From: Naegleria gruberi
Lineage: Eukaryota
Length of the DNA: 64,000 bases
Direction: 5' to 3' (one strand)
NCBI GenBank assembly: GCA_000004985.1
Contig: GG738888.1
This document shows, one piece after another, positions 1-34,236 of this stretch; position 1 is the first letter of the stretch, and the number at the start of each line of letters is the position of its first letter. The translations under genes and the position numbers were made by a program. Below the pieces are notes generated by a model. That model had not been told where the DNA came from, did not search any database, and was given only the letters and a program-made list of their open reading frames with translations.

Positions 1-325
1 GACCATTGCCAATTTTCATGAATTTTATCTCCCATAAATGTAATATTTCTTTGATTAATTAGCACCACATTTAATATCATTTTATTTCAATTGTAAAGGT
101 TTTGAAATATTAACTCTGTGACCATTTTACAAGAAAATAATCATCTTTCGAAATTATTTGACCATAAATATCATGTGACATGGTATAGCAAATGTTCCAA
201 ATATACAATATTCTCTAAAATATTTAGCTCTACTAATTTCATCATTAAATTGAATAGTTGTAATTTTTTCATGATATAAAATTAAAAATATAGCAATAGG
301 AGCAGGTACTATATATAGACCTAAT

Positions 326-393
326 AAAACTGAATAATAGTATAATTAATAAAATATATATATAAAACTGAATAATAGTATAATTAATAAAAT
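326..393. repeat. Tandem direct duplication of about 37 bp (AAACTGAATAATAGTATAATTAATAAAATA x2) overlapping the 3' end of ORF 346..702.
   Basis: Read directly. Two near-identical copies are separated by ATATATAT. Confidence 0.5.
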
Positions 394-702
394 AATAACA
401 GCATAAACAACACCATTTCCACAATCACCCATATAACAATTACCACAATTAGATGAACCACCACCAGTTCCACAACAATCAATACAACAATTACATTTAT
501 CACATAAATTATTACATGATGAACAACAATTATCACTTTTTCTAATACGTTTAGATGAATGTATTGATGGTGGTCTTATAATTCTATTATCAATTCTATT
601 AGAAATATTATTATTATTATTATTTAATTGATTGGATTGTTTATCAAATATAGTAATATGTTCAATTTGATTTACAATTGAACACCATCTAAAAAAACCC
701 AT
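346..702 (-). CDS. Hypothetical Cys-rich protein with C-terminal hydrophobic tail. Gene structure is unresolved and an N/Q-rich open frame continues upstream to about 1000.
   Basis: ORF track. C-terminal CCSSCNNLCDKCNCCIDCCGTGGG motif followed by a hydrophobic tail. A second open frame (YPPSSYLQPIDGQPIITQQ...) overlaps the 5' end in another phase. Confidence 0.3.
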   Translation of the reverse strand: MGFFRWCSIVNQIEHITIFDKQSNQLNNNNNNISNRIDNRIIRPPSIHSSKRIRKSDNCCSSCNNLCDKCNCCIDCCGTGGGSSNCGNCYMGDCGNGVVYAVIILLIILLFSFIYIFY

Positions 703-1065
703 TGAAGCACAACATAAATATTTATCAATAGTATCTTGATTTTGTAATGTATATTCATAGTGTGTTGATGATTTTTGTTTAAATCTTGAAATTTTTTACT
801 AATTATTTCAGTTTTAATCATTGGAGTAGCATTAGTAATATTGAAATGTTGATTAGTTTGATTATTAGTTTGAAATAATTGTTGTTGAATTGGATAAGAT
901 GATTGTTGTGTTATTATTGGTTGACCATCAATAGGTTGTAGATATGAAGATGGTGGATAGCTTCATTTGTATTAGAATTATTAATACAATTTATTAATTT
1001 AATATATTTAATTAAAAATTACTAAAATTAGACAATTATATTTTAAAGTACTTTTTTGAAAAAAA

Positions 1066-2645
1066 ATGAAAGGTTTGCTCTCTACATTAAATCGTTCTGT
1101 TCTTCATTCCGTCAAAGGTTTTAAGAATGTACCAATCAGAGGTTCTTCATCATTGAAACATTTATTTACTACTCCGTCATCATCATTACATGTCTCATCA
1201 TCATTAAATTTATTTATGATGAATAATAACCTAAAGCCTTGTAATTATACAACAAGTCTTATTGTTAATAATAATAATAATAATAATGAATCATCAACAA
1301 GTAAACCTTTAAATCAATTAGAACAATCCATGTTACAAGGAATTACTTCTATTATTCAAGCTAATAATGAATCTTTTTCATCAGGTGATTATATTACTAT
1401 TCAAAAAAGATATGAACAGTATGTTATTTTAATTATTTTAATTATTAATATATTTAATATTATTATTATTCATCATCATAACAATATATAATAATAACAA
1501 CATAACATCATCAAAATAATAATTCATAACAATCAACATCATTATAACATCATCATCATAAAAACATCAGAATATATAATCAATTAACAAAATCTAATCA
1601 TCCAATTCAATCAGAATTAATTAAAGAGAATGTATTAAAATTAATTTCAATTAGTATTGAACATTTAAAATTGATTGAAAAAAAAGAAGAATTAATATTA
1701 CCATTTTATAAATTAGAATGGAAGATTGCATGTGTATTACAAATAATTGGAGAATATGAACAAGCAGTTATTAAAATTACTAGTGCATTAAATTCAAAAG
1801 AAGGAATTGAAGAAATTCCACAAATGAAAATTATAAAAGCATCAATTTTAAATAGTATGGGATTAAATGATCAAGGATTTGAATTACATAATAAAGCTAT
1901 ACAAGAAATTGGACCTAAAGTAACATGGAAGAATGGATTAGAAGCATCTTTAGCATTTCATGAATTGGGTGAATATTATTTAAATAGAGGTGAAACTGGA
2001 AAGGCTGTTCAAAATTTTGAAAAATCACTTTCAATTAGTGAAGGTTTTTATGGATGGATGTCACCACAAACAACTAAAACTGCATTATTATTAAGTAGAT
2101 TATATTTAGAAACTAATAAGGTTGATTTTTCTGTTATTTTAGGTGAAAAAGCTTTAATTGGTATTGAATTATTTTTAGATTTATATGAAGCACAATTAAT
2201 TACAATTTCAGGTTCATATTTAGCAAGAGCATATGAAAGAAAAGGTTTTTATCCATTTCAACAATCAACCATTTCAAGAGTTTATAATATTTTAAGAAGA
2301 AAAAAGAATGAAACTGATACACAAACATATATGGAATGTGTTTTTAAATTAGAAAATATGATGGGTTCATGTAGATTCTTTCAAGGTCATTTAAAATTAG
2401 CTGATCAAACATTTACTAAATTAGATCAATTAGCTGAATCTGTAATGCCTGAATGGATTAAAAAAGATTCAGAAGAAGCTCAATTTGAATTAGCCTATAT
2501 GAAATATTTTAAAGGTATTTCTAAAATTGGATTAAAAGAAAATTCACAAGGTATTTCTGAACTTGAACAAGCAAGAAAAATATTTTTAAATTTACAAAGA
2601 CAAGATTGGGCATTACATTGTGATCAATATATTAATAAAAATTAA
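1066..2645 (+). CDS. TPR-like repeat protein in 2 exons (1066..1418, 1571..2645). The intron is 1419..1570 (GTATGT...CATCAG). The N-terminus resembles a mitochondrial presequence.
   Basis: ORFs 1066..1491 and 1671..2645 join in frame across a GTATGT 5' splice site. Exon 1 leaves CA and exon 2 supplies A, giving CAA. The track's start at 1671 is TTG, not ATG. TPR-like helical repeats in exon 2. Confidence 0.55.
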
Positions 2646-3165
2646 TACATTTTTTATTATTAATTATTCTTTGTCTTTATTGAAAGAATTGGCATTTTGT
2701 TACACAGCTCCCAAAACAGAACTTTATTCTTTTTTAGAGTTAATACAATTTTTCTATCATTTCTAAAATGTTTTGTAAATTTTATGTTTATTGGATATTT
2801 AATATTATTTGATAATGAATAATACCTTTAAATATTTCAAACTCTATTCCATTTAAACTATTGATACTAATGACATCATAAAATTTAATACGAAATACTT
2901 TTTGTCTTTCTTTTTACATTTCTTTCATTCTTAATAGTAGTATATTAAGATTTCGTTTCATTTTTTAAACTCAACATATTGTGAATACAGTGTTATAATA
3001 ATCATGTACTTGTTCTTTATACTAATTTATTTCAATATTTGTTTTGATTGGAGAAACACCAATACCTAGTTTTCAATAAATTAACTCTAAATCTTCCTAT
3101 TTAATATTCTATACTACTGCTACTAATAGTATTTTGATGGTAGAATGTTATGTAAATATATTAGG

Positions 3166-5271
3166 TTATAACCTATTCTCATAGGGTACACTAATAAGCA
3201 TTGTATCTTCTTCAATTCCTGATTTGAATAATTTTGAGAAGAAACCTCTCTTTTGATTATTACCACTGCCATTACCACTACTACCAATACCAATACCACC
3301 TATAGCACCATTACTATTCATCATCATTATGGAAGTTTGTTGTTGTTGATAGGGATAATCCATACTATTGGCTCTACTTCTACTACTACTATAATTACTT
3401 TGATTACTATTGGCTCTCTCTCTTTGAATTGCATTACTATTAGAACGACTATTTCTATTATTATTATTATTATTATTATGTGAATAAGGAGAGGAGGTAA
3501 TAATATATTGTTGATCATTCAATAGACCACCACCACCACTATGTAATGGTGGAGACATGATTAATGAACTTGCTTCACTCTGTTCATCCAAATCAGATTC
3601 TATACCACCTCCAATACCACCATCAATACCACCACCAATAATACACCAACACCAATATTTCCATTATGATAATTATGATAATAATAATTATTGTGTGTAC
3701 TCAAAGTTGAATCAGTGTAATGTGTTAAATCATTTTCATCTCTAACAATATCACGTATAATTTGATTAGATTTATGAAATATATAACACATTAAAAATGG
3801 TGTAAAATCTGATAGAGAATTAATAAATCCAATTACAATAATATAAGAATCATATAAAATTAAAAGTCCATTTCCATATAATGAAATATAAATTTCAGTA
3901 AATATTAATTGTGAAATTGATTGTAATAAATAAACCATTATACAAATAATCATTGAATAAAATAACCATTTGCTAGTTGATTCAATTCTATTCATTAATT
4001 TTGGACCATTTCTATAATTATATGAAGATTGTGATGATAAATTATATTCAATATTATTTTCATTCTCTTTATATCTACTATTATTATTATTATTGAATGT
4101 TGTTATTTGTTGTTGTTGTTGTTGTTGTTGTTGTGGTGGTACTGTTGTTGTTACTGCTGCTAATTGTGTGGTGGTGGTGGTGGTATTTTGTGTTATTATT
4201 TGTGTTATTATTTGTGTTGGTCTTCCATTAGTAGTGAATGAATTTCTTTTATAAATTTTTAAACCTTCAACAAATGATAAATTCCACATTGATTTTCTTT
4301 TCCAAATTGAGTAAAATAAAAACCAAATAATTAATGAAAATGATAAAAATGCATTTAAACAATGTTCAACTCTAACAATCCATGTAAACCATATTGTATT
4401 CATATTTGGTGAATATAAATCTGGATAACATTTAATAAATACTAAAATTGACATTGTAATTTCTAATCCAATCCATAAAATACTACACGTAATAAATATT
4501 AATAAATGTTTAAATTGTCTTTTTTGTATATTTGCACTTGCATATCCTCTTTGAAATGATTCTAATTCACTCCAAAAAAATGCCTTTTTTTTTAATATTA
4601 TTTAATATTTAATATTATATTGTAATAATATTTAATATTTTTGTAATAATAATAAAACTTACAATTAAAAAATAAGTATTATGTAATAAAATACCACTCA
4701 ATGTAAATGCAACTAGAAATATTTGAGAATGAGACCAATTATTTCCAATATCAAGAATATTTGTTGGTAATAATTCAAAACCAACAAGAAAATAAATTAA
4801 AAATCTAATTAAAAAATATGGAATTATTTGAATATAAAATAAATATTGTAATATTTGACTAGGTTGTGAATTTGGATATAAATTCTTTTCTCCATTTCTA
4901 AAATCTTTTAATCTTTTAAATTTTTTAATCCATTTTGAAATTTTATTAACAAGTAAATAAATTGAATAACAAAAAACTAGTGAAAATCCAAAAAAGTAAA
5001 ATACAAAAAAACAAATAAATGTTGGATGTAGATAATTATTAGAAGGTGGTTGATCATTTGTTGTTGTATTATTATTAATATATCCGAATATTTGTTCTTG
5101 TACAAGTGATGATAATGATGATAATGATGATGGTGAAGATGATGGTGATGTATTAATAATATCCGCAGCATGATTCCTAGTATCAGTCCAATCATGATGA
5201 TATGATGATGTAATGATTTTAGATAAAAGTGTACTACTCATTGTTGAATAGTGTTGAGAGGTGTCGATCAT
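3166..5271 (-). CDS. Multi-pass membrane protein. Exons are 5271..4663 and 4583..3602, separated by a 79-nt intron at 4584..4662. The low-complexity ORF 3166..3591 may be a C-terminal extension reached through a weak GTGTTG intron or a frameshift.
   Basis: GTAAGT 5' splice site (RC of acttac at 4657-4662) and a poly-A...AG acceptor join ORF 4615..5271 to ORF 3600..4454 in frame as ...FLI|AFFWSE.... Several hydrophobic helices. The N-terminus is poly-S. Confidence 0.5.
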
Positions 5272-5495
5272 TTTTTGAAAAGTTATTATTGTTGTGCTGA
5301 TGATGATTGTTTTATGATGCGCTCATTTAGATATTTTCCATTATATATATTTCTTTGGTTGGGTTTCTATTTGGGTTTATGCTTTTCCATACAGACTAGT
5401 AGTATTATCATTTCAAAAACATAATGTTGTGTAATAGCTAGCTCCTCAAATATTTTCTCACTCAGTTGATGTGTTTATATGATGAATAGTTTTAT

Positions 5496-6455
5496 TTAAA
5501 AATCAGTTTCAATAAATAGAATGTCAAACATAGACCCTGACATATCAAGGTTCCATTCAGTAATATCAGAAAGAGGAGAATCCAGTTGAGAGTTTGAAGA
5601 TATTGTTGATGATTGATCTGATAACCGTGAATTTAATTCAGGTTTTGGATCAATTCTGTTGTAATTATCAATAATAAACTCGTTACTATTCAATGGTGCC
5701 ATGGTATCTGATTGATACAGTGAACCATGTATCACCACTGAATTAAAATTAATTGGTGATGATTCATTCAAATTGTAAGTGGAAATATCTTGTTGTTGAG
5801 CAGCAGCAGGTCTATTATTGAAACTAGTAATAGAGGATTCATTGGATATTGTTGGAGAGAAAGAGTTATTGGTTGGAGTGGAGGTAGAGGCAATGGTAGT
5901 GATAGCAGTGATGGCAGGGGAGGCAATGGTAGTGGTAGTGGCAGCAGTGGAGGTAGAGGCAGTGATAGTAGTAGTAGTTGGAGTAGTAGTATTAGAATTG
6001 GATGAATTGAAATTAACTACATTATTTAAAGAGGTAGGTGTAGAGCAAGAATTAGATCTCAAAGGAGTGGAAGGAGCATGAGGAACAATGTACAACACTT
6101 GTTTGTTTAAAGACAAGTCTAAAATTTGTAAACAATCAATGTGCGGACGAGAATGTCTTCGTTGTTTTTGTGATCCATTTGAAGGACATGAAGCACTTGA
6201 AGAAAGTGCTTTAGGTCTTCTTCGTTTTGTCACTCCATTGAAGAATTGTACTCTTCTATGGTTTGAATTCATGAATGATGATGATTTACTTGTTAGCTGG
6301 TTTCTAGAACAATTATTCATTAAACTTCTACAAGTATAACAATCATTATTCATATTTGTTGGTTGTTGTTGCACATAAAAATTGTATTTACCTGTTGTGA
6401 ATCTGCAAAAGGTTTTTTCAAAGGGATTAGCGTGGCTTTTAGGGGCTATTTTCAT
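5496..6455 (-). CDS. S/T-rich low-complexity protein with an N-terminal Cys/His cluster (CRF..C..C). Function unknown.
   Basis: 319-aa ORF with eukaryotic codon bias. The antisense ORFs 5790..6005 and 5818..6081 are reading artefacts of the repetitive ACT/AGT-rich tract. Confidence 0.35.
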   Translation of the reverse strand: MKIAPKSHANPFEKTFCRFTTGKYNFYVQQQPTNMNNDCYTCRSLMNNCSRNQLTSKSSSFMNSNHRRVQFFNGVTKRRRPKALSSSASCPSNGSQKQRRHSRPHIDCLQILDLSLNKQVLYIVPHAPSTPLRSNSCSTPTSLNNVVNFNSSNSNTTTPTTTTITASTSTAATTTTIASPAITAITTIASTSTPTNNSFSPTISNESSITSFNNRPAAAQQQDISTYNLNESSPINFNSVVIHGSLYQSDTMAPLNSNEFIIDNYNRIDPKPELNSRLSDQSSTISSNSQLDSPLSDITEWNLDMSGSMFDILFIETDF

Positions 6456-6810
6456 TTGAGATATTTTTTTTTGAAGTTGTTTTTAGAAAGCCTAGTCGCT
6501 TGAATACGCTTTAAAAATGGCCACTAACACCATTTAATAATAATAAGGATACTGAATATTTTGAGAGTTTTACCAATTGTTATTGATAAATGATTTGGTG
6601 GAGTGTTGATTGTTTAGTAGTACAACATGTGTAAAAAGACAGGTCATTGAGTACGAATAATATCAAAATCTAATACTACTACTACAAGGTTACCAAGTAT
6701 TGTAAAGTAATGATTTAAAAAGTGAAGGAATTCAACCAACCAGTAGGAATACAAGGCTTGTTGGTTGAAGAAAGAGCGCAAAACAACACTACAAAAGAAT
6801 CTTCAGCAAC

Positions 6811-6824
6811 ATCTCGGCCGAGAT
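6811..6824. repeat. Perfect 14-bp GC-rich palindrome ATCTCGGCCGAGAT in the intergenic/promoter region.
   Basis: Read directly. The sequence equals its own reverse complement. It is GC-rich in an AT-rich background. Confidence 0.5.
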
Positions 6825-6855
6825 GATGACAACTTCAAGTGGCTAGCAGTAGTCG

Positions 6856-6899
6856 TTGGCGCCAAATGGTTTTACAACAACGATTACAATTTTGGCGCC
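6856..6899. promoter_or_regulatory. Pair of E2F-like GGCGCC-core elements: TTGGCGCCAAA at 6856-6866 and TTTTGGCGCC at 6889-6899. Together they form a 10-bp inverted repeat with a 22-nt spacer.
   Basis: Read directly. They match the E2F consensus TTTSGCGC. They lie about 400 bp upstream of the ATG at 6455. Confidence 0.3.
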
Positions 6900-7128
6900 T
6901 AATAGATAGTAATGTTGTGGATTATAATGAAATTATCTCTTTGAAATTGTATAATGGCTCAATGCTTTTTTTGAATTTCAATTCCAGAATGGTTTTATCT
7001 ACAAATGAACTCTAAATTGAATTTGGAACAGACTTTACAAAACACTCTACAATTTTCAAGATCCATTTCATAAACAGAGATGAAACCAAAAACTTCTAAA
7101 AGATTTATTTGGAAATTACTTGAAGTTT

Positions 7129-8265
7129 TTAAAAATTATTTTCAATAACTCTTGTAATATTTTCAATCTTATCTCCAACCTTGCTTTCAGTTTGTTCCAA
7201 ATCTTTTACAAAATTTTTCTTTGGTTGATAAGTTGATTTAGTTTTTGTAAAGGAATACTTTAAATTATCAAATTTAGATAATTTCAAATCTAAGAAATCG
7301 TATGGTTTCAATTTTTCAAAATCATTGAACATTTGATCACATGATAATTTCCAATCTAATAATTCTTTCAAATAATCCATTCTAAATTGAGATTGTTTAT
7401 CAAGTGAATATAAAACTTCACTTTCCTTCTTTTCAAGTAATTCTTTAATTTTCAAGAATTGACTTTGAATTTTTTGTTTAGTTTCTGTAGTTGAAATTTC
7501 AGTATTACCCAACTCATTTTCAAGTTGATTAACTGAAATTTTCTCTTCATTAATCCATTTATCAATATCAGATTTAAATTCAAATATTTCTTCTCTTTCA
7601 ATTCCTTCAACATCTTCAATTAAATGAATTTTATGAGTATTGTGAAGTTTACTAACAGCACAAGCAGAACACATTAATTTCTTACAAGTTTTACAAAGTG
7701 AATTAATGGAAATATTATGAGTTGGACATTTATGAATTGCACTTTGTCTATTGTAATTATAATTTAAATAAATTATAATTAAATATATAATAATTAAATA
7801 ATAATAATTAAATAAATATTAATAATAAATATAATTAAATAATAATAATAAATAAAAAACATACGATTCAGCACCACTAATTCTAACAATTCTAATAGCA
7901 ATTTCAATTTCATTCTTTTTAGGAGTATTTAAAGATAAAGTTCTCTTAACTTCTTCATTTAAATGAAATTGATTAGTATCAATTTGTAAAGAAACATTTC
8001 CAATAAATTCATCTTTGGTAATTTTGTTTTCATCCATAACAGTGAATAAAAGTGTTACATTTGGAATATTCTTCAATACCATTCCAGAGACTGGAATTAC
8101 AAATTCATTATTCCACTCTGGATTTGATGATTTTGAAATAACAAATGATTTCTTCTTTATATTGGCATCTAAATTAGTTTCAACTAGACAGTAGGCATCT
8201 TGTTTTGATGATAAATTAGCTCCAATTGTACGAACAATAATTAAATCTCCATCTAATAAACTCAT
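7129..8265 (-). CDS. C2 domain + B-box zinc finger + coiled-coil protein in 2 exons (8265..7865 and 7747..7129). The intron is 7748..7864.
   Basis: Exon 1 has a C2-like motif (NPEWNNEFVIPV). The GTATGT 5' site (RC of acatac 7859-7864) and CAATAG acceptor join in frame (..GAES|QSAIHKCPTHN...). A B-box-like C/H pattern (CPTH...CKTCKKLMCSACAVSKLHNTHKIH) is followed by a coiled coil. Confidence 0.55.
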
Positions 8266-8278
8266 GATGACTGTACTA

Positions 8279-8305
8279 CAATAATAATAATAATAATAAT
8301 AATAT
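8279..8305. repeat. (ATA)n microsatellite in the 5' flank of the C2/B-box gene.
   Basis: Read directly: aataataataataataataataat. Confidence 0.6.
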
Positions 8306-8526
8306 TCACAAGATAATGATCCTGGATAAAGTTAACTTTTTTTTTTAAATTTGTTCTCCTCCATTACAATCAAATGTGGTGAATTTATAATTGTTCACCA
8401 TGTCATGTTGACAGGAGCGACCCAAAAAAACAAAATAATAATTGATTGGTTGACCATTTAAATAATAGAGGGTCATTTGATGTGAAATGGAATGTTCTTT
8501 AAAAACAAATGTTATTTCTTTTTTTA

Positions 8527-9523
8527 TTAATTATTAGTATTAATATAAAGAGAAACAAAGAATGTAGTTAAATTTATACTAGTTGCCATACAAACAATAC
8601 CAAGTATTACAATTAATGGAATTGGTAAAAGGAATAATTCTGAATTTTTGATAAAAGTTAATTTGAGATAACCTTTAAATGTAATGTACCAATAATATGA
8701 AAATGAAAAAATGTAAAGTAAATCTGAAAGTATTATTCCCATAAATCCATCCATGCTTAATAAAGGTAAAAATATAAATTGAGCAACATAGAGTAAAATA
8801 AATAATGGAAAGAATGAATTTGTATGAATATCAAAACTATATAACCATTCAATACTTTCATTATCACTTGTTGATAGAATTTTGTTTCCAATTAACCTAA
8901 AAATCAAATATTACATTAAAATATATTTAATCCATCATTATGATCCGAATTATAAAATTCATATTAAAATGTTCATATGTATATTTTGTAATATATTCAT
9001 ATGTTTTATAATATTAATAATAAATAATTGATAAATAATTGATAATATGATAACATACCAAGTAAATGTAGAAATTACAATTCCAAGAAATATAAAATCA
9101 AAAAGTAATAAATATCCAATCAGTGAAATATAATTCGATAATGAAAGCTTATGGAAAAAGATTGAATAAATTAATCCGACAATTAACATGAAGGCTGATA
9201 ATATCATTACAAGGGAAGGATCATCTCTTGAGTATCTATCTTTAATATCTAAATGATCAGCATTTAATAATTAATATTATTAATCAGAAATCTTAACAAG
9301 ACATACATTTTCTATTCTCAGCACTTTTATATACAAGATCAGGGGATATTATTAATTGTAACATTTGTCTGAAGGCTCCTTTAAAATCCAATTGTCTCCA
9401 TTTAAACATTCTCACTATAAATTGAATAATTTGTTCTTGATCACCACCTGATTTACTAATTGATGATGATGATCCTGTTGCTGATGTTGATGAGAGTGAG
9501 GGAGATGGTCGTTGTTGCATCAT
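8527..9523 (-). CDS. unc50: UNC-50 family (GMH1-like) Golgi membrane protein in 3 exons: 9523..9307, 9248..9059 and 8896..8527. Introns are 9249..9306 and 8897..9058.
   Basis: Family signature FKWRQLDFKGAFRQMLQLIISPDLVYK...YSRDDPSLVMILSAF and 5 TM helices. Both introns begin GTATGT and all junctions are in frame with ORFs 9293..9523, 8959..9207 and 8527..8907. The product is about 258 aa, matching the family's size. Confidence 0.7.
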
Positions 9524-9837
9524 TTTTATTACTTTTATTAGAGTAATTAATAATAATATCTACATCCCAACGAATAACAATGATGACATCATATCATACG
9601 TGGAAATGTAATATTATACTATTTGATTGTTTCTACTTTCAATGGTATACTAAATTTTCGAATTGGCCAATATTCAAACAAGCCTTCTTCCTCTATTCAA
9701 TGATAGCACACTAGTAGTAGGCTTTAAGAAAAAGTTAGGCTTCCTTCACAAAAAAGCCTTCTCAAAAGATAAAATGCACATTCTTGTTGATGTTGTTTGA
9801 AAAAAGCCTTCTTCTGAATTTTCTCGGAACTAAAAAA

Positions 9838-12800
9838 ATGGATAAAACAAAATCACAACAGCAGCAACAACAATATGTAAACCATCAACATGTTGAGGAG
9901 GATGATGAAAAATCGACGAGTTATGATTTGGTTGCGGAAACAAAGAAATGGTGTGATGAATTTGATATTAAACAAATAGGAACATTATTTGAAAATAAGA
10001 AGGCTACTATTGATGTTTCATCAATGCAAAATACTCAAATACTTGATGAATTATATGAACATTTTAATGAGAGATTACTTTCTAATCAAACATTAAACGC
10101 CATGCAATATAGTGTGCACGGATTGGTTCAATCATGTTTAAAAACAGTCAAAAAACCAATATTTACAGTATTACTTAAATTAGTGAATATTTTAACATCT
10201 AAACATAAGAAAGTTTTGGATTCAATGTTATCTTCTAATTCTACTAGTTTGAAGAATGTAAATTTCCTTAGATTTTTATTCATCTTTGAAAAGATTCTTG
10301 TTGATATATATTCAAATTCAAATTCATTGAATGATGAATCAATTCAATTAATTCAACAAATATCAACAAATTTCATTGCTACTCATCAAAATTTAGAATC
10401 TAATCAATCAAATGATTTGAAAAATATCATATTTTCAGCACTTTCTATGAATGAACTATTTTCATCACTATTTTCTTCAGGTGTTGATCAAAGTACTTTA
10501 ATTTCAATGATTGATTCATTAAATAATATTGCTAATCATTTATTAACAAAGAAAGATTTAGTGAATTGGGCTAATTTAGTTTATATGAATATTACTTCAA
10601 GAGTTTTGGAAATTTCTTCACGTTCCTTATTACAATCTTCTATGAAAGTTATTTTTACTTGTAAAATTGCTTTTAAATTAATTACTTTAAAATTTAAATT
10701 TTTAAATATTATTGATAAAATTAATTCTACTACTACATCTATTAATAATATTAATAATAATAATACTATTAATAATAATACTATTAAATCTAATACTACT
10801 ATTAATAATAATACTACTACTACAAGTCTAAATGATAACTCAATTATTGAAAAGTTAAAAGAACAAGTACAAATTATCAATCAATTAATATTTGAATTTC
10901 TCAAAAATACTAATGGAGGTATTTCAGATTATTTAGATAATCCAGATGTACAATGTTATGGATTAATTAATGCTAGAAATGTTTCATTTAAAGCAGGATT
11001 TTTAAATGAATGTGTTGGAAGTAATACATTCTATTTCTTTAAAGAATTTGTTTCTATTTTAAGACAAGAACCAAAAAGTTTATTCAATTCTATTGAAAAT
11101 ATTTACAAATCATTTGAACATGAAATTAATACTTTCCAACATTTAACAGAATCTGTTTCATTATATATTAAAATTAAACAATCATTCATATTTAGTTTAA
11201 TGTGGTTAACATATTTAGAATATCAAAAGGAAAATATTAATAGAAGTGATTTTTTAAATTTAATAATTTCATATTTTAAAATTATTCAAAAATTTGATAT
11301 TTACAAAATGGCATCAGAAAATTCAGTTTCTTACAAATTTTTATTTGAATTTGTAAATAGAATTTTTAGAAATATTTTAATATTTGAAATTGATAATTCT
11401 CCAAAAGAAGAAATTTATTCCATAATTGAATGTTTAAAGTTAATAGTAACAACAGATTATCGTATTCTTGATGGTTTTTATAGTTATATTTGGAAGATTG
11501 TTTTCCAAATTGATTCAAATGATGTTGAAAAATTAAATTTGAGTCAATTCATTGGTGAAATGTTAGACATTTTTGTACATTTTGCTAAAGGAAAGAGTGC
11601 TTTTGATGACATGTTTAATGCTATTGATATGTTATCTTTATCATTATCATCCACTAAGTATACTAGTACTACTAGTACTACTAGTACTACTACTGCTAAT
11701 ACTGGTGGTAAACAATTTAAAAAGAATAGTAACAATACATCCATTAATAATAATAATACTAATAATAATAACATGATTCTGAATAATTCAATAATTCAAT
11801 TAGAATCATTCAGAAATAGTATTAAGAATTTGATTCAAAATATTGCACCAACAGATATTATAATTTATTTTAAATATTTAATTGATACAATTTCACAACG
11901 TTTAAATAATAACAATAATAATCATAATAATAATCATAATAATAATAATAACAAGTTGAAAAGTATGATAACACTTTTATTATTTCCATTGACTTCATTT
12001 GGATTTTTTGTTCAATTAAATGAATCAAATTATGAAGAAATGCAAAAACTTGCAAAACAAACATGTTCAGAAATTGTTAAAAAGTTAATGAATGAAATGT
12101 CAAATGAATCAAGTGTAATTCAACTCTATTATTCAATGAGTAATATTATTCATAGATCTGAAGAATTTTCATCAGATGTATTTTCAATGAAAGAAATTGT
12201 TAATGATAAAGATTTTATTGTTAATTTTCATGATGGTACTGGTTTAACAATGGATGAATTTACTAATAATCAATCATTTATACAAGTATTTAAAGAATTA
12301 TCATTTATGAATAAGGGTATTTACTGTTATATAATTTTTAGAAGATTAATGATAATTAATCAACAAGTTAATATTAGAAGACACAATTTAACAACTTCAA
12401 ATCAAAATTTATATTCATATGAAACTCATGAAAGTAGAAGAGAACAAAAATTATTAACAAGAAATTTTCAAACTTATTTTAATTTTATTCAAGAAGAATT
12501 ATCAATTTTATCTAACATTCATCAATTTGAAGAATTTACACTTGAAGAAATTGAAGAATTTGATTGGGGAGGTATTATTGAATCTATTAATAGTGAAAAA
12601 AAGTACATTTCAATGTTATGGTATTTAACTGCTACTAATTTTATTTATATTATTCCATATTGTGATGAAGAAGAATTATTAAAATTATGTAATTTTATTC
12701 TAACACAATCTATTAATGGTATGAGATTGAATAGATCAATGTTATTACCATTCTCACTTGAAAGAGTTACATTAGATTTATGGAATGATGATTTATTATT

Positions 12801-13569
12801 TGAACAAGAAAAAATTCAATCTTCATTTGAATCTTTCTTATTTAATTCAATTTTAAATTCTATTCAATTAATATCAAATGATATGTTTTCAAATGAAAAG
12901 AAATGGATTGAAAAAATTGAAAAATTTACATCAAGTATTTCATCTTGTAAAATTGAAAAGAAAGTTTCATCCATTTTTGAATATATTGAATCTAAAGTAT
13001 TTAAAGTAAAGGATAATAAGGAAATTGATGAAAATTTATGTTCAATTTTTAAATCAGATTTTAAATTAACAAATATTAATCCTCAACAAGGAAATTTATA
13101 TTTAAATCCATATATTAATTTAATTTTATCATTCCCACCAAAATACTTTTCACACTCATTTACATTATCAGTTTTATCATTATTAATGATTTATGATGCT
13201 TTTATTTGTTTAGATATTTTCAATAATAATAATACCAATACTACTACTCAATATAATAGTGATACAAGTAATTATCCATTATTTGGATCGAATAGAGTTA
13301 AATTTATTGAATCTTGTAGAAAAGTTCAATTATTATTATTACGTAATTTACCAGAAGAAAATATTAGAAATTTATCTCAATCTTTTATTTATAGATTTTA
13401 TATTCGTACAGTTTATTCTTTAAATTCTAAATTTACTCTTAAAAATATGAATGAAATTGTAAAGAATATTGAAAATTATACATGTGATATCATGTCCATT
13501 CTTTTCAATATGGGATTAGATAAGGAAATGAGTGAAGATAAAGAATGTTTAATCATTTCATTATTATTA

Positions 13570-13617
<48 letters not shown>

Positions 13618-15261
13618 ACAAATAATACTACAACAATAGATAATGTAGCACAAGTAAGATTTTCCAATTGTTTATTAGGAAGTATTTATTCATTTATTAA
13701 GAAATCTATTATTGAAGAGGAAGGATCTTCTATTCAAAATAGAAATTTCCAAATTGAATCCAATATTTATTCATTATTATTTACAAATGGAATGTATGGA
13801 AAGAAAAAGAATTTTTATTTTGCATTTACTGATAGAGTTAAATCCATTAAGAATGATCCTCATGTTTATCAAAGTCTTGTAATTTCATCACAAATTTTAC
13901 TTTTAATTTCAACAAGTAAATCTAAATTACCATCATCTATTGATCATAATACTATTAATGAATTATATAATGTAATGTGTGAAAAGGAAGTAACATTTAA
14001 TGTTTTGAAAGATTTAATTGAATTAGTAACAATGTTTGGTCCAAATTCTCTAGATGAAGTAAATCCACTTCCTATTCCTCCAAGTAAATTATTTAGAAAA
14101 GTTGTTAAATCAATTCAAGATGTTAAAGAAGAAAAATTATTAACTTTAATGGTTACAACATTGAGTGGTTCACATAAGATTTTCCTAATTAATATGATTA
14201 TTGATCAATTGAAAGAATTTAATCAACATCTTGCAATGCCAAATATTTCTGTACAAAATGCTTCAATTCATGTTGATCAAGTTCAAGAAAATGTAAAGAA
14301 ATTAATAGATATCATTTCAACTGTTCACATGTGCTTGATTTCAATTGACAAGTCAGAATTGAACTTTTATTTATGTTCTGTTATTGAAGCTATCAAATTG
14401 AGTACTAGATCTTATCTTTTTAACACAATTCCAATTTCAAATATTTCTTCAATTAGTTCTGATTATTGGAAGATTAATTCTTCAGTTCAAACTTTAATTA
14501 TGAGATTGTTAAAGTTTATTAATTATATTTCATTAGAAATCAAATCACCACATGTTTATACAACCAAAACAACAATGGATTTATTCCTTTCTTTAATTTC
14601 AGATATTGCTGTTTCTACAAGTATATTCACATATTCTTCAATGGATGTAGCCAGTAGAGGAAAGAATATTATCATGTTATCTAAATTATCAGCTGAAGAA
14701 TTGTTAACCATGAGATTGGATCCAAATATTATTATAACACTTTCTGAAATTTTGGGATATATTGTTCAACATTCAATTTTAAAGGTTACAAAGGTTTCTA
14801 TTGTTCAATCAACTCTTAATTCCTTAATTAATATGCTTTTTGAGAGGGTAATCATTTTTGAGTCAATTCTCGAAACAAAGGAAGTTGATAATATGAATAC
14901 TTGTGTGAGATGTACTGAATCAATCGGATCAGTTTATAATACTGTTGCAAAGATTTCTAGTTGGGATGAATTTAAGGCACATATTGTATTTGAATTTATT
15001 TCAACTTATGCTGCTGTTAGTGATATGGTAAGAATGGATGATAATACAATGGATGAAAGACTTTACATTTCCAAATTACTTGGTACTAATAAGAAGAAGA
15101 TTCTTGATACCTTTGTCAAGAGTGGAATTCATACCCTTATTCATATTCCAATTGTTAATTCAAAGATTACAAGTTGGATGCAAGATTCTACAAGCTATCA
15201 ATCCTTACAAAATCTCTTCTCACAAATTTTACAATATAACAGTAATGATCTCGGATTCTAA
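9838..15261 (+). CDS. Very large (about 1807 aa), mostly helical low-complexity protein of unknown function, encoded without introns.
   Basis: Single 5.4-kb ORF. The ATG at 9838 has an A-rich context, whereas the track start at 9784 is probably 5' leader. It contains poly-N/T tracts, for example (AAT)n at about 13569-13615. Confidence 0.5.
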
Positions 15262-15265
15262 TAAA

Positions 15266-18084
15266 TTATTTACTTATATCATAACCTGAAAGAGAAAAGA
15301 GGAACAAATTAGACATGTCATCACCAGAACATATTGTTAAATCATCTGGTGAAATTGATACGGCTGAGACTGGGAATTTCTTCTCCTCAAATGAAGTAAC
15401 AAATGGATTACCACTTGAGATTGAATAAACTTGTGTAGCATAATTATCTCCACAAGTTACCAACAGAGAAGTACCTGGTTGATTAGACCAACAACTACGT
15501 GTTGCACCTTGTTTTTGGATAAATTCTAAACTATGTCTGAAAGTAAAGAGTACTTGATTCATTCTCTGGTCTACAACTCTTACTAAACCATCATAACCTC
15601 CAGTAGCCATGTAGGTGTCATCAGCTGACCAATTTACAAATGAAACTCTATTGTGAAGTCTAGTGTTATGAATATCACCAATCAAGTTCTTTTCCTTTGT
15701 ATCATAAACATGCACAGTACCATTTTCTCCACCAATGGCAATCTTCTTTCCACAGTGTGATAGAGAAAAAGCTTCTGTTCCATTATTCTTGGTTCTTATT
15801 TTGTCCAACAATTGATAAGTATTCACATCATATAAAAATATTTCTCCATGTTTCTTATCAGAAGATAGAATACTCATTGCATAAAATACATTATCTTTTC
15901 CAAATTCCATTCCAGATATTTCAGTTTTTACCTTTTCTCTTGCCATAAGGTCAATTATCATGGATCCACTTCTAATATCCCAAAACTTTACACTCTTGTC
16001 CTTCTCTGAGCATGAAGCGATAACATGTGAATCATCTGGATGGATAGCCAGTAAGCTGACTTCATTATCGTGACCTTCTGAGTTTTCTGATTTTTTAATA
16101 GTCTTCAATAGAGTGCCATCAGAACCAAAAACTCTAATGGCTTTATCAAACGACGAGGTGACTACCTTTCCATCTTGGGTAAACTTGACATCTGTTACTG
16201 TATCTAAATGTCCTTGAAGCTTCACTCTCTTTCCTTCCTTCAAATCAAACAGGTAAGCGTTTGGCTCTGAATTGGTTGAAATTGCAGCCATTCTTTCACT
16301 TGATTTATCAAAGGCAATTTCTACAATGGAACCAGAAAAGTCTGAAAAGGAGCTTTTTGTGACGTTTGGACTTTGCCAACATTGTCTATATGTAGTATTC
16401 AAATTAAATCTATCAGAATCTGGTAAATCATTGTAAATTTTCTTAATATTGACATGCTTATTTAAAGTGAGATCGCTAGTCTTGATTTCTCTTGAAGCCA
16501 TCAACTCATTAATTGTCTTGGAACAAACAAGTGGTATTGGTTTTTCGTAGAAGGTAAATGCCTCTCCGTGTTGACCTTCTCCATTTGAAATATCATCCCA
16601 ATAATTTTTAATATCTTCACTAATTCTATTATCAAATAAGATAGCAATCTTCTTATTATTCCACTTGTTATGTTTGAGATATTTGATAATTTTAGCCTCT
16701 GCAGGTGTAAAAGGACAATGTATCAGATCACCATGAAGTAATCCTAGTTCTTTCAAATCTTCTGCCTCCATTTTGAGTAAATTTTCACATTTACGTCTCT
16801 TTAAATATGGCTTATAGTAAGAAGTAAATGGAATATCTTCTCCCTCGTTGTTTTTTCTTAAAAATAAATTAAATTGATAATCCTTTTCGAATAGAGATAA
16901 GTCATCCTTAACTACATGTCTAAGGAGACGTTGAATACGAATTTCTGGCAGAGTTGCATCAATCCTAGCTATTTGTAGAGCACTCAACTCAGCATCTGAG
17001 TCTAATAAATAATCTTTTTGTGATGGGGTTGCTTTTTTTGGGCAGTAGAGACTTTGGGCAGGAAGGAAAGGTATTCCTTGATAACAAATATTATCTGAAT
17101 TTCTATAAAAAGTTTGGACATTTTGGAGGGAGGAATTCTTTGCCATTTCACATGGATATAATAAATGTTTGAATGATAATTGTTCTTGAATATCTTCTGA
17201 TGGATAGTAATGGAAGTTTGGTGGAGCTAAATGTTTTCCTCTATTATGTTTGAATAAATGATCCAAAAGTTCAGCAGAGTTTTCTACAGCTTCACTTTCA
17301 TCATATAAATTGGTTTCTTCTTTAGGGGTTTCAGTTGTTGGGGAAGGAGATGATGGAGATGGTGGAGTGGATGGTTTTTCTTCAACTTTCTGTTTTTTTC
17401 TACTTTTTTGAGATTTCTCTTGTGTTGACTTGATTTCTTTTTTCGATTCAATTGTCGATTCTTTTAACAGTGGAGAAGAAGAGGTCGATGATTTAGAATT
17501 GTCAGTTTTAGTTTTCTTCTTGATCGTCACTTTGGGTTTCTGTTCATTTGTTTCAATTGTTTTGTTTGAATTTTCATCACATGCCGGTTTGTAATGATCA
17601 TCACTTGTCTTTAAATTAACATCACCACTTGTAGTAGTATATCATTCAAATCCTCAAACATAAAATCATCACCTCCTAAGCCACCTCCAAAATCAAAATC
17701 ATCGTCTATCATAAAATCATCAATTGTTATCTGCCTAGAATTTTCAATAGTCCCAGATGATGAACTAGTACTACTAGCACCTATTGTTGTCGCACGAGTA
17801 GTCTTTGCTGATGAAGATTGTAATTCAGCCTTTTTTGCTGATGATGTTAATTACCATGAGTCATTACAAATCCGTCATGTAGAGATGTACATTCAAACAA
17901 TCCACCATTAAATATTCATTCCGATAGGATAAACTTACCCTCTTGTATCATCCTAGTTATATTTCTACGATTTTCTGCAAGTTTAGACAAGGTTTCTGTT
18001 GCTGGTTGCATAGCAAAAAATACATTCACCTTGTTAGCATAGTAATCAATCTTTTCAACAAGAGCTTCCTCATCGTCAATCATC
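15266..18084 (-). CDS. WD40-repeat protein. The C-terminal propeller and main body are on the exon 15266..17530. Candidate upstream exons are 18084..17940 (MIDDEEALVEKIDYYANKV...) and an acidic DDFMIDDDFDF exon at about 17660-17880. The structure is unresolved.
   Basis: WD repeats are present (VTDVKFTQDGKVVTSSFD..., IAIGGENGTVHVYD). The main ORF has no in-frame ATG for its first 130 or so codons and its track start is GTG, so 5' exons are required. The upstream open frames do not join without a +1 shift near 17640-17660. Confidence 0.5.
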
Positions 18085-18147
18085 TGATTATTCAGTGAGA
18101 TTCGTTTTTATTTGACTTTTGCATTTTTTTTAATTTAATTTTTTTAA

Positions 18148-32730: not shown

Positions 32731-33631
32731 TTAATAATATTCATCATCAGAGTCACGATTTGGATCATATTTACGAACATATTCTTCCTCTTCCTCTTCC
32801 TCTTCTTCTTCTGGTGCATCTTGTTGATAATTATTGTCACCATATTGAGGTTCTTCCTCAGCTTGGGTTTCCTCTTTTATTTCGAATGAAACTTTAGTTT
32901 CCTTTTCAGTTTCTTCTGGTTTCTTACGACCTTCAAGTCTTTCTTGTTTTTTCTTTTCAATCTTTTCCAATTTCTCCTTAATTTCATCTTCAGTTTTAAT
33001 AACTTCATCTGGGAATTTTTCCTTAAATTCCTTTGTAATTCTTTCAGCATCTTCCTTATCAATAATAGGTGGCTAATTTTCATAAATCATCATCAATACA
33101 CAGAATAATAATTATTATTATCAACACTATGCTTTGAATAGAAATAACATACATTTGGACCTCCTTTGTATCCTGCCTGTTGTAATTCTAATAAAAATCT
33201 TTCTTCTTCAATCCATTCTTCAGCATCTTCGAATGTCTAAAATGTTAAACATTCAAAATTGATGACAATTATTATCCATTCAGTATGATTACGATTCAAT
33301 TGTTAATGAAAACATGATAATCAGAATTTACAAAATTGTAAATTAAACATACACCAATAAATTTAGTATCAACAAATAATTGTGGTAAATCATATAAACC
33401 ACCATTGTATTTTAACATTTCATTAATCTTTTCCGGAACGGTACCCAAATCTATCACTGTATATTTAACTTGATTACTATCCAAGGTTTGAATTAATTTT
33501 TTACATTGGAGTGAACGTGATCGGATAGACTTGACTGAATTAGATTCATCAAATATTGATTCGAAACCTACAGAAATATAACTAATGTACACAAAGAGTT
33601 CTCCTCTAGTGGTACTACTTTCTTGAGACAT
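32731..33631 (-). CDS. SH3-binding glutamic-acid-rich (SH3BGR)-like thioredoxin-fold protein in 3 exons: 33631..33353, 33236..33153 and 33072..32731. Introns are 33237..33352 and 33073..33152.
   Basis: Glutaredoxin-like core (VYISYISVGFES...DLPQLFVDTKFIG) followed by an E/K-rich acidic tail ending in poly-E. Both introns begin GTATGT and the junctions are in frame with ORFs 33296..33655 and 32731..32970. The third-exon frame opens exactly at an acceptor AG. Confidence 0.6.
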
Positions 33632-33686
33632 TTTTTTGTTGTTTTTAAAACACACATTGACAAGTGATTACATGACAACCTGACTG

Positions 33687-34236
33687 TTATTTTACTTTTT
33701 TAAGAGGAGGTTCTGTATTATCTGTTGTTAATTGTTGTTGATCCTCCCGTTTTCTCTTATCTTCTGAATGATCTTGTTCTTCATTTGATAAATTAGTAGA
33801 TTCAATTATTGTTGATTTTTCTTCTTCTTGATTTTCTTCAGAAACCTGTGGTGGATGTTTAAAACACCAATCACATTGTAAAACTTTACTTCCTAATCTT
33901 TTCCCACGTAATCCCTCAAGAGCTTCCCTAGCTTGATCTAAATTTGCATATTTTACAAGAGCCAATCCGATTGGTAATCCTGTCCTTCTCGAAAGTTCAT
34001 AATGCAAACTAATAACTTGTCCAAAGTCTGATAATGTATCCGTGAGAGTTTCTGCATCAATATTTCTATCAATATTATTAATAAATAGCACATATCCTTG
34101 TACACTTTCCACTGGATGCGTTATTTGTGATTCCGATGCTGCTAAAGAATGTTTAGAATGTTGTTGCTGATGTTGTTGGGGATGATGATTTATGTTGTGA
34201 TGAGTATTGTGCTGCTGCTGATGATTGATTCTCATT
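33687..34236 (-). CDS. rbm8a: Exon-junction-complex RNA-binding protein Y14 (RBM8A), with an RRM.
   Basis: The RRM carries the Y14-specific C-terminal motif ...LRGKRLGSKVLQCDWCFKHPP (compare human ...QPISVDWCFVRGPP). The N-terminus is a poly-H/Q extension. The ATG is near 34234-34236. Confidence 0.7.

What the first reader, a model, noticed from the sequence alone, without database searches (positions are those of the whole stretch)
17531..18100. WD40 gene N-terminus does not assemble in frame, suggesting a frameshift, cryptic splicing or a sequencing error
The 754-codon WD40 ORF (15266..17530) has no in-frame ATG for about 130 codons. Its frame opens right after a TGA at about 17655. Upstream there is a convincing first exon (ATG at 18084, MIDDEEALVEKIDYYANKVNVFFAMQ..., GTAAGT at about 17939). 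There is also an acidic exon in another phase (AKKAELQSS...DDFMIDDDFDFGGGLGGDDFMFEDLNDI). The acidic frame and the main frame overlap for only about 25 nt and differ by +1 near 17640-17660. Either a single-base indel is present (an assembly error or a recent pseudogenising frameshift), or a non-canonical micro-intron is used.
Basis: seen in the sequence. Interest (0 to 1): 0.5.

Follow-up and report, generated by a model that had tools for sequence, protein, structure and literature searches.

The report
Frame break patched by doubtful intron
The start of a Naegleria gruberi WD40 gene really is split between two reading frames, and the most likely reason is a one-base error or recent indel in the deposited sequence that the reference annotation hid behind an unconvincing 86-base "intron", which is an ordinary annotation problem and not new biology.

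Summary
The window is Naegleria gruberi, and the gene is NAEGRDRAFT_58880 (XP_002673790.1, 876 aa) on the minus strand. Exon 1 (18083..17939) joins an acidic exon (from 17837) through a textbook 101-nt GTAAGT intron. The acidic frame stops at TAA 17613-11. The 792-codon WD40 frame opens only after TGA 17644-42. Both frames are open together for 28 nt (17641..17614).

Splicing it reproduces the reference protein exactly. That "intron" looks spurious for four reasons:
- Its donor is GTGATG, whereas 13 of 13 clear introns in the window have GTNNGT.
- It is A-rich and T-poor, unlike those introns.
- It is open throughout in the downstream frame and has normal coding codon usage.
- Three orthologous Naegleria-type loci have one continuous exon there.

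Its 3n+2 length is what a single base missing from an assembly produces. Best reading: a sequencing or assembly indel (about 0.55). Rivals are a genuine recent frameshift (about 0.2) and a genuine weak intron (about 0.18). A micro-intron and ribosomal frameshifting are rejected. Only reads or RNA can settle it. Interest is low.

The parts
17939..18083 (-). Exon 1 (ATG 18083; MIDDEEALVEKIDYYANKVNVFFAMQPATETLSKLAENRRNITRMIQE plus the first base of an Ala codon)
   Evidence: tblastn gives 64-69% identity to exon 1 of N. lovaniensis and of L003.
17838..17938 (-). Intron 1: 101 nt, GTAAGT...TTAAC...CAG, phase 1. It has consensus signals and is conserved in position and phase in the orthologues.
   Evidence: The orthologous introns have donors GTATGT, GTATGT and GTACGT and split the same Ala codon.
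17642..17837 (-). Exon 2, the part that is unambiguously in the acidic frame (AKKAELQSS...DDFMIDDDFDFGGGLGGDDFMFEDLND). The conserved D/F-rich GG-DD-F-E patch lies here.
   Evidence: codon-usage log-likelihood ratio, LLR, +0.24 bits per codon, typical of coding. The acidic patch is also present in P0002, P0003 and L003.
17614..17641 (-). The 28-nt window where both frames are open (TATACTACTACAAGTGGTGATGTTAATT). The inferred indel must lie here. The best guess is at 17641/17640, in GAT^ATA.
   Evidence: frames. In one search, MAFFT places a single 1-nt gap at this spot against both N. lovaniensis and L003. One search gives the repaired products (905 or 904 aa).
17611..17613 (-). TAA that ends the acidic frame. 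If nothing is spliced or repaired, the product is a 123-aa peptide.
17642..17644 (-). TGA that closes the main (WD40) frame on its upstream side
17540..17625 (-). The 86-nt "intron 2" of the reference model (GTGATG...AACAG, 3n+2). I judge it to be probable coding sequence (SGDVNLKTSDDHYKPACDENSNKTIETNEQ in the main frame).
   Evidence: the reference protein is reproduced only with this intron; donor score -0.8, against 2.9 or more for every real intron left out in turn; acceptor at the 52nd percentile of random exonic AG sites; T 0.23, A 0.47; codon-usage likelihood ratio of about 32-240 in favour of coding.
15266..17539 (-). Body of the gene in the main frame: the KPKVTIKKKT motif, a low-complexity S/T/P/K linker, a conserved middle region and a C-terminal WD40 beta-propeller. 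The stop TAA is at 15268-15266.
   Evidence: WD40 and beta-propeller Pfam hits at residues about 510-875.

Best explanation
Exon 2 of NAEGRDRAFT_58880 is really one continuous exon. It runs from the intron-1 acceptor (17837) through the acidic patch into the WD40 body, as it does in the other Naegleria species examined.

The deposited N. gruberi sequence carries an indel equivalent to one missing base inside 17641..17614, probably at GAT^ATA, 17641/17640. The most likely cause is a consensus or assembly error in the draft Sanger assembly, or the choice of one indel-bearing allele.

The break separates the acidic frame from the main frame. The automatic gene modeller compensated by calling the nearest frame-restoring GT...AG pair (17625..17540, 86 nt = 3n+2) an intron. 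That deleted about 29 real codons from the predicted protein. The true product would be about 905 aa and would read ...GGDDFMFEDLND(x)TTTSGDVNLKTSDDHYKPACDENSNKTIETNEQKPKVTIKKKT...

Shown: the frame geometry, the poor splice signals, the coding-like nature of the 86 nt, and the continuous exon in the orthologues. Inferred: that the cause is an error in the sequence and not a real mutation.
For: 1. **Orthologues.** N. lovaniensis (L001), a metagenomic Naegleria-type contig (L002) and a Logan-assembled contig (L003) all share exon 1 and intron 1. After that, each has a single ORF running from the acidic patch into K.TVTIKKKT and the body.
2. **Donor.** No GTNNGT hexamer occurs between 17837 and 17500. 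All 13 clear introns in the window have GT[ATGC][ATC]GT, as do the three orthologous copies of intron 1. On a position weight matrix built from those introns, the annotated donor GTGATG scores -0.8. Real introns, each left out in turn, score 2.9-14.2. The annotated donor sits at the 79th percentile of random GT sites inside exons, and the acceptor at the 52nd percentile of random AG sites.
3. **Composition.** The 86 nt are T 0.23 and A 0.47. Real introns are T 0.37-0.60.
4. **Coding character.** The 86 nt have no stop in the downstream frame. Their codon-usage score lies at the 58th-75th percentile of true coding windows. It is reached by only 3-4% of real stop-free non-coding windows and by 0-0.3% of simulated ones. 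The approximate likelihood ratio is 32-240 in favour of coding.
5. **Alignments.** tblastn matches from all three orthologues run 60-110 nt upstream of the annotated acceptor in the main frame. MAFFT puts a 1-nt gap at 17641/17640. The repaired linker is 33 aa, against 31 and 28 aa in N. lovaniensis and L003.
6. **Easy to patch.** Nine frame-restoring GT..AG pairs exist around the break, so a modeller will always find one.
[quoted passage not shown] The intron here is 3n+2.
Against: - No reads, ESTs or RNA-seq for N. gruberi could be reached. The reference protein and the 754-aa ORF are not on record on any other contig, and two metagenome scans found nothing. So neither the error nor the absence of splicing is directly shown.
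- The peptide encoded inside the 86 nt is not significantly similar to the orthologue linkers (shuffle p 0.08-0.35). This is a fast-evolving, low-complexity region.
- The break lies in no homopolymer run, which is where indel errors are commonest.
- My set of 13 "true" introns was partly chosen by preferring consensus-like donors, so the donor argument is partly circular.
- The annotated intron has legal GT-AG ends and a length (86 nt) within the normal range. The JGI model may have had EST support that I cannot see.
Confidence: 0.55

Rival explanations
1. Genuine frameshift mutation in strain NEG-M. It would be either a recent loss-of-function in a long-cultured axenic lab strain or one indel-bearing allele of a heterozygous or polyploid genome. 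The locus as sequenced would then encode only a 123-aa N-terminal peptide, and the WD40 body would not be translated from this allele.
For: The same evidence that the 86 nt are ancestral coding sequence and that the annotated intron is a patch. The break is not in a homopolymer run, which somewhat disfavours a base-calling error. The context GATATAC and ACTACTAC is slippage-prone. From my own knowledge: the N. gruberi genome paper reported allelic heterozygosity in NEG-M.
Against: Exon 1, intron 1, the acidic exon and the 792-codon body are all intact and conserved. There is no second lesion in 2.4 kb of a 31% GC sequence. Any mutation must therefore be very recent or sheltered by another allele. 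From my own rough estimate, draft assemblies are likely to contain far more consensus indels than real frameshifts in conserved genes.
Confidence: 0.2
2. The reference annotation is right: a genuine 86-nt spliceosomal intron (17625..17540, GTGATG...AACAG) specific to N. gruberi. It would have arisen either by insertion or by "intronisation" of former coding sequence after a frameshift. The product would be the 876-aa protein XP_002673790.1.
For: The ends are canonical GT-AG. The length lies within the 41-280-nt range of clear introns in the window. Splicing restores the frame exactly and keeps the conserved KPKVTIKKKT motif. The linker is length-variable among species: about 45 aa in N. lovaniensis and about 90 aa in L002. 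Intron positions commonly differ between species this diverged (50-60% amino-acid identity).
Against: The donor lacks G at +5 and T at +6, which all 13 clear introns in the window and all 3 orthologous copies of intron 1 have. Donor and acceptor score like random exonic GT and AG sites. No YTRAY branch-point-like motif occurs in the last 45 nt. The sequence is A-rich and T-poor, unlike real introns. It is stop-free and coding-like in the downstream frame. It is absent from the three orthologues.
Confidence: 0.18
3. A non-canonical micro-intron of 17-20 nt (17628 or 17625 to 17609, GTGGTG/GTGATG...TTTAAAG) restores the frame.
For: GT...AG pairs with a length of 3n+2 exist at those coordinates.
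Against: The shortest clear intron in the window is 41 nt. N. fowleri workers used a 30-bp minimum intron length (PMC8296547). The donor scores at the 9th percentile and the acceptor at the 48th percentile of random exonic sites. Orthologues have no intron here.
Confidence: 0.02
4. Programmed -1 (or +2) ribosomal frameshifting from the acidic frame into the WD40 frame within 17641..17614.
For: The two frames overlap, and the shift needed is -1.
Against: None of the in-phase heptamers in the overlap (T ATA CTA ... A ATT TAA) fits the X XXY YYZ slippery pattern (read directly). The TTTAAAG heptamer is in phase with the wrong frame. Orthologues need no frameshift. I know of no precedent for this gene family.
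Confidence: 0.01

Closest known systems
Assembly-indel frameshifts compensated by predicted introns (Entamoeba histolytica case, Roy & Penny 2007, Nucleic Acids Res 35:4737, PMC1950532)
   Same: The predicted intron is 3n+2. Inserting one base makes the ORF run straight through the "intron". The genome is a draft Sanger assembly of an AT-rich protist annotated automatically.
   Different: In that study the missing base was demonstrated against individual reads. Here no reads could be consulted, so the error is inferred from splice-signal quality, codon usage and orthologue structure.
Ordinary Naegleria spliceosomal introns (for example intron 1 of this same gene)
   Same: The annotated intron 2 has GT-AG ends and a typical length (86 nt).
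   Different: It lacks the GTNNGT donor, the T-richness and in-frame stops. It is also absent from orthologues, whereas intron 1 is conserved in position and phase in all four loci.
Intronisation: creation of an intron from exonic sequence (own knowledge; not verified in the papers read here)
   Same: If the annotated intron were real, it would consist of former coding sequence that is still open in frame.
   Different: There is no evidence of splicing, and the weak splice sites argue against efficient use.

Membership tests
Spliceosomal intron of Naegleria type (claim: 17625..17540 is an intron) | GT...AG termini | tested here: met
   GTGATG...AACAG. Splicing reproduces XP_002673790.1 exactly.
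Spliceosomal intron of Naegleria type (claim: 17625..17540 is an intron) | Donor consensus GTNNGT (GTAAGT, GTATGT, GTGAGT, GTTAGT or GTACGT) | tested here: not met
   13 of 13 clear introns in the window and 3 of 3 orthologous copies of intron 1 have G at +5 and T at +6. This donor has T at +5 and G at +6. Its matrix score is -0.8, against 2.9 or more for real introns left out in turn. There is no GTNNGT anywhere in 17837..17500.
Spliceosomal intron of Naegleria type (claim: 17625..17540 is an intron) | Non-coding character: T-rich, with stops in the flanking frames and no codon bias | tested here: not met
   T 0.23 and A 0.47, against T 0.37-0.60 in real introns. It is open in the downstream frame, and its codon-usage score lies at the 58th-75th percentile of real coding windows.
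Spliceosomal intron of Naegleria type (claim: 17625..17540 is an intron) | Removed from mRNA (spliced cDNA or RNA-seq junction) | not testable with these tools
   No N. gruberi transcript or read data could be reached.
Assembly-indel frameshift compensated by a predicted intron (Roy & Penny 2007) | Predicted intron length is 3n+2, and adding one base extends the ORF through the intron | tested here: met
   86 = 3x28+2. Inserting one base at 17641/17640 gives an uninterrupted 905-aa ORF.
Assembly-indel frameshift compensated by a predicted intron (Roy & Penny 2007) | Orthologues have uninterrupted coding sequence at that position | tested here: met
   L001, L002 and L003 each have a continuous exon.
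Assembly-indel frameshift compensated by a predicted intron (Roy & Penny 2007) | Individual sequencing reads contain the base that is missing from the assembly | not testable with these tools
Programmed -1 ribosomal frameshift site | In-phase slippery heptamer X XXY YYZ in the overlap of the two frames | tested here: not met
   None of the in-phase heptamers of 17641..17611 fits (read directly).
Ultra-short (micro-) intron | The organism uses introns of about 20 nt, and the splice signals stand above background | tested here: not met
   The shortest clear intron in the window is 41 nt. The micro-intron's donor is at the 9th percentile and its acceptor at the 48th percentile of random exonic sites.

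The most novel reading that the evidence does not exclude
The frameshift is real, and N. gruberi rescues the gene by splicing out 86 nt of former coding sequence from a non-consensus GTGATG donor. This would be a caught-in-the-act example of intron birth by intronisation in a heterolobosean whose other introns have strong consensus donors.
Probability: 0.08. Interest if true: 0.5.

Novelty: already known. Interest (0 to 1): 0.1.

Why it matters
This matters mainly for annotation quality. If I am right, XP_002673790.1 / D2VQ56_NAEGR lacks about 29 residues and contains a false intron. The same kind of patch may affect other N. gruberi models, for example those with non-GTNNGT donors, 3n+2 length and an open downstream frame. 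Such a filter could be run genome-wide, and it would also clean up intron gain and loss studies that use N. gruberi. The finding has no bearing on any open biological question unless the weak intron turns out to be real.

Tried and rejected
- **Independent N. gruberi sequence.** An exact-protein look-up of XP_002673790.1 and of the 754-aa ORF on other contigs found nothing on record. Two metagenome scans both gave 0 hits. One used a junction pattern with a variable gap; the other used a degenerate back-translation of YANKVNVFFAMQPA.
- **Protein similarity of the in-"intron" peptide to orthologue linkers.** Not significant by shuffle test (p 0.08-0.35), so I do not lean on it.
- **Splicing exon 1 directly to the main frame, skipping the acidic exon.** None of the four AG sites I read by eye in 17643..17539 is in the right phase for the phase-1 donor. 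This was not a computed scan. The acidic patch is also conserved in the orthologues, so I rejected this.
- **Alternative 56-nt intron (17659..17604, GTTTGA...ACAAG).** The donor is at the 29th percentile of random exonic sites. Rejected.
- **Micro-intron and ribosomal frameshifting.** Rejected; see the rival explanations.
- **A second suspicious junction (34313-33690 / 33667-33299).** It turned out to be an ordinary gene boundary, a stop followed about 60 nt later by an ATG.
- **Pfam.** It finds only WD40 and beta-propeller families in the C-terminal half and says nothing about the N-terminus.

Full report
**Identity of the locus.** The window is AT-rich (30.7% GC). A conceptual translation of the gene retrieves a single near-identical database protein. 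It is "predicted protein [Naegleria gruberi]", listed as XP_002673790.1, EFC41046.1, NAEGRDRAFT_58880 and UniProt D2VQ56, 876 aa. Orthologues at 50-61% identity are N. lovaniensis C9374_002681 (P0003), a protein from an ENA metagenome contig (P0002) and one from a Logan assembly (P0004). Pfam recognises only WD40 and beta-propeller families, in the C-terminal roughly 360 residues.

**Checking the observation.**
- Exon 1 starts at ATG 18083 and ends at 17939.
- The donor is G|GTAAGT at 17938 and the acceptor AG is at 17839-38. This 101-nt intron joins exon 1 in phase, splitting an Ala codon, to the acidic frame (AKKAELQSS...DDFMIDDDFDFGGGLGGDDFMFEDLNDI).
- The acidic frame continues ...LLQVVMLI and stops at TAA 17613-11.
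- The WD40 frame is closed upstream by TGA 17644-42. It then stays open for 792 codons to TAA 15268-66.
- The first ATG in that frame is 166 codons from where the frame opens, or residue 129 of the GTG-started 754-aa ORF.
- Both frames are open only in 17641..17614. Passing from one to the other needs one added base, two removed bases, or removal of 3n+2 bases.

Splicing 18083..17939 + 17837..17626 + 17539..15266 reproduces XP_002673790.1 residue for residue. The reference annotation therefore bridges the frames with a canonical GT-AG intron of 86 nt (17625..17540; GTGATG...AACAG). It reads ...FEDLNDILLQV|KPKVTIKKK.... So the N-terminus does assemble in frame with legal splice sites. The real question is whether that intron exists.

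**Orthologue gene structure.** I fetched the DNA of the three orthologues and translated it in three frames.
- All three have the same exon 1. All three also have intron 1 at the same position and phase, with donors GTATGT, GTATGT and GTACGT.
- In all three, a single open frame then runs from the intron-1 acceptor through the acidic patch (D-F-D-GG-DD-F-E) and a variable linker into K.TVTIKKKT and the body.
- None has an intron or a frame change where N. gruberi does.

**Splice-signal quality.** I collected 13 clear introns from the window. These are junctions between long same-strand ORF segments, each with a frame-restoring GT..AG pair.
- Donors are GTAAGT (6), GTATGT (4), and GTGAGT, GTTAGT and GTACGT (one each). 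All have G at +5 and T at +6.
- Lengths are 41-280 nt, T content is 0.37-0.60 and GC content is 0.03-0.33.
- The annotated intron 2 has donor GTGATG, T 0.23 and A 0.47. It has no YTRAY motif in its last 45 nt.
- On a position weight matrix built from the 13 introns, its donor scores -0.8. Real introns, each left out in turn, score 2.9-14.2. The value is at the 79th percentile of 1,281 random GT sites inside exons.
- Its acceptor scores -3.3, at the 52nd percentile of 1,749 random AG sites inside exons.
- No GTNNGT hexamer exists between 17837 and 17500.
- Nine different GT..AG pairs could restore the frame, so finding one is not evidence of an intron.
- Caveat: where a junction offered several candidates I picked the consensus-like one, so the donor statistic is partly circular. 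The enrichment of GTNNGT at junctions is nevertheless far above chance.

**Coding potential.** I trained a codon-usage log-likelihood ratio (LLR) on 19 long ORFs (31 kb) against 12.6 kb of uncovered sequence in the window.
- The stretch 17641..17540 in the main frame scores +9.3. In-frame coding windows average 5.8 with SD 5.1, so this is the 75th percentile.
- Only 3% of real stop-free non-coding windows reach this value, and 0 of 3,000 simulated ones do.
- For the 84 nt strictly inside the "intron", the figures are 58th percentile, 4.3% and 0.3%.
- The approximate likelihood ratios are 240 and 32 in favour of coding.
- Intron 1 scores -0.5 to -1.3 bits per codon in all three frames. The 86 nt score +0.32, and coding sequence averages +0.28.

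**Homology inside the 86 nt.**
- A shuffle test of the encoded peptide (YTTTSGDVNLKTSDDHYKPACDENSNKTIETNEQ) against the orthologue linkers is not significant (p 0.08-0.35).
- tblastn matches from all three orthologues do extend in the main frame 60-110 nt upstream of the annotated acceptor. One example is CTTSQNKDFN---HHKP aligned with TTTSGDVNLKTSDDHYKP.
- A frame-blind MAFFT DNA alignment places a single 1-nt gap in N. gruberi at GAT-ATA (17641/17640) against both N. lovaniensis and L003.
- The repaired linker is 33 aa, close to the 31 and 28 aa of those species.
- I treat all of this as supportive only.

**Interpretation.** The pattern matches a documented artefact. It combines a 3n+2 predicted intron, an ORF that runs through it once one base is added, weak splice signals and no orthologous intron. 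Roy & Penny (2007, PMC1950532) showed for E. histolytica that single bases missing from the assembly caused frameshifts "compensated for by prediction of an intron", which produced an excess of 3n+2 introns. I therefore rank the explanations as follows:
- (a) A sequencing or assembly indel, or selection of an indel-bearing allele, with the annotated intron as a patch: 0.55.
- (b) A genuine recent or heterozygous frameshift in NEG-M: 0.20.
- (c) A genuine weak intron as annotated: 0.18.
- (d) A 17-20-nt micro-intron: 0.02.
- (e) Programmed frameshifting: 0.01. No in-phase X XXY YYZ heptamer is present.

Exon 1, intron 1, the acidic exon and the 2.4-kb body are all intact. Any real lesion must therefore be very recent.

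**Limits.** No N. gruberi reads or transcripts could be reached. The exact look-ups failed, the protein cluster has a single member, and two metagenome scans were empty. Options (a), (b) and (c) can only be separated by read-level or RNA evidence.

**Verdict.** The finding is an ordinary annotation or assembly problem of a known kind, and interest is low.

Noticed in passing
window 15259-15268: The 1825-aa plus-strand ORF (9784..15261, stop TAA 15259-61) and the WD40 gene (minus strand, stop TAA 15268-66) converge with only 4 nt between their stop codons. Their 3' UTRs must therefore overlap each other's coding sequence.
   Followed up: no
L003:~3030 (Logan SRR29240419_6098): This lovaniensis/fowleri-like orthologue has its own frame break, between ...VPTAPNSNMS and LDGDLEKDTNAILESAFKH. 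That explains why P0004 is truncated at its N-terminus. It is probably an assembly error in the Logan contig.
   Followed up: partly
L001:3001-5969 (N. lovaniensis C9374_002681, P0003): The annotated model appears to skip part of the WD40 propeller (...ITKLVQGTMEMKHLHFLIAVIRHNLEFIHKQ...) when compared with N. gruberi and L002. This suggests a mis-modelled intron in that annotation as well.
   Followed up: no
window 1-14000 versus 14001-64000: GC content is 0.21-0.27 in the first 14 kb. That stretch includes the Asn/Thr-repeat-rich 1825-aa ORF. GC content is 0.29-0.38 in the rest of the window.
   Followed up: no
window 17838-17938; L001:3203-3353; L003:2296-2444; L002:~2917-3017: Intron 1 of the gene is conserved in position and phase (phase 1, split Ala codon G|CN) in all four loci, with donors GTAAGT, GTATGT, GTATGT and GTACGT. 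The upstream TPR-repeat gene is also syntenic in the N. gruberi window, L001 and L002.
   Followed up: partly
window 33560-33800 (minus strand): Two adjacent ORFs lie in different frames, with only 22 nt between the two open frames and no usable GT-AG pair. This looked like a second frame break, but it is an ordinary gene boundary...PPLKKVK*, then about 60 nt, then ATG MSQESSTTRGE.
   Followed up: yes
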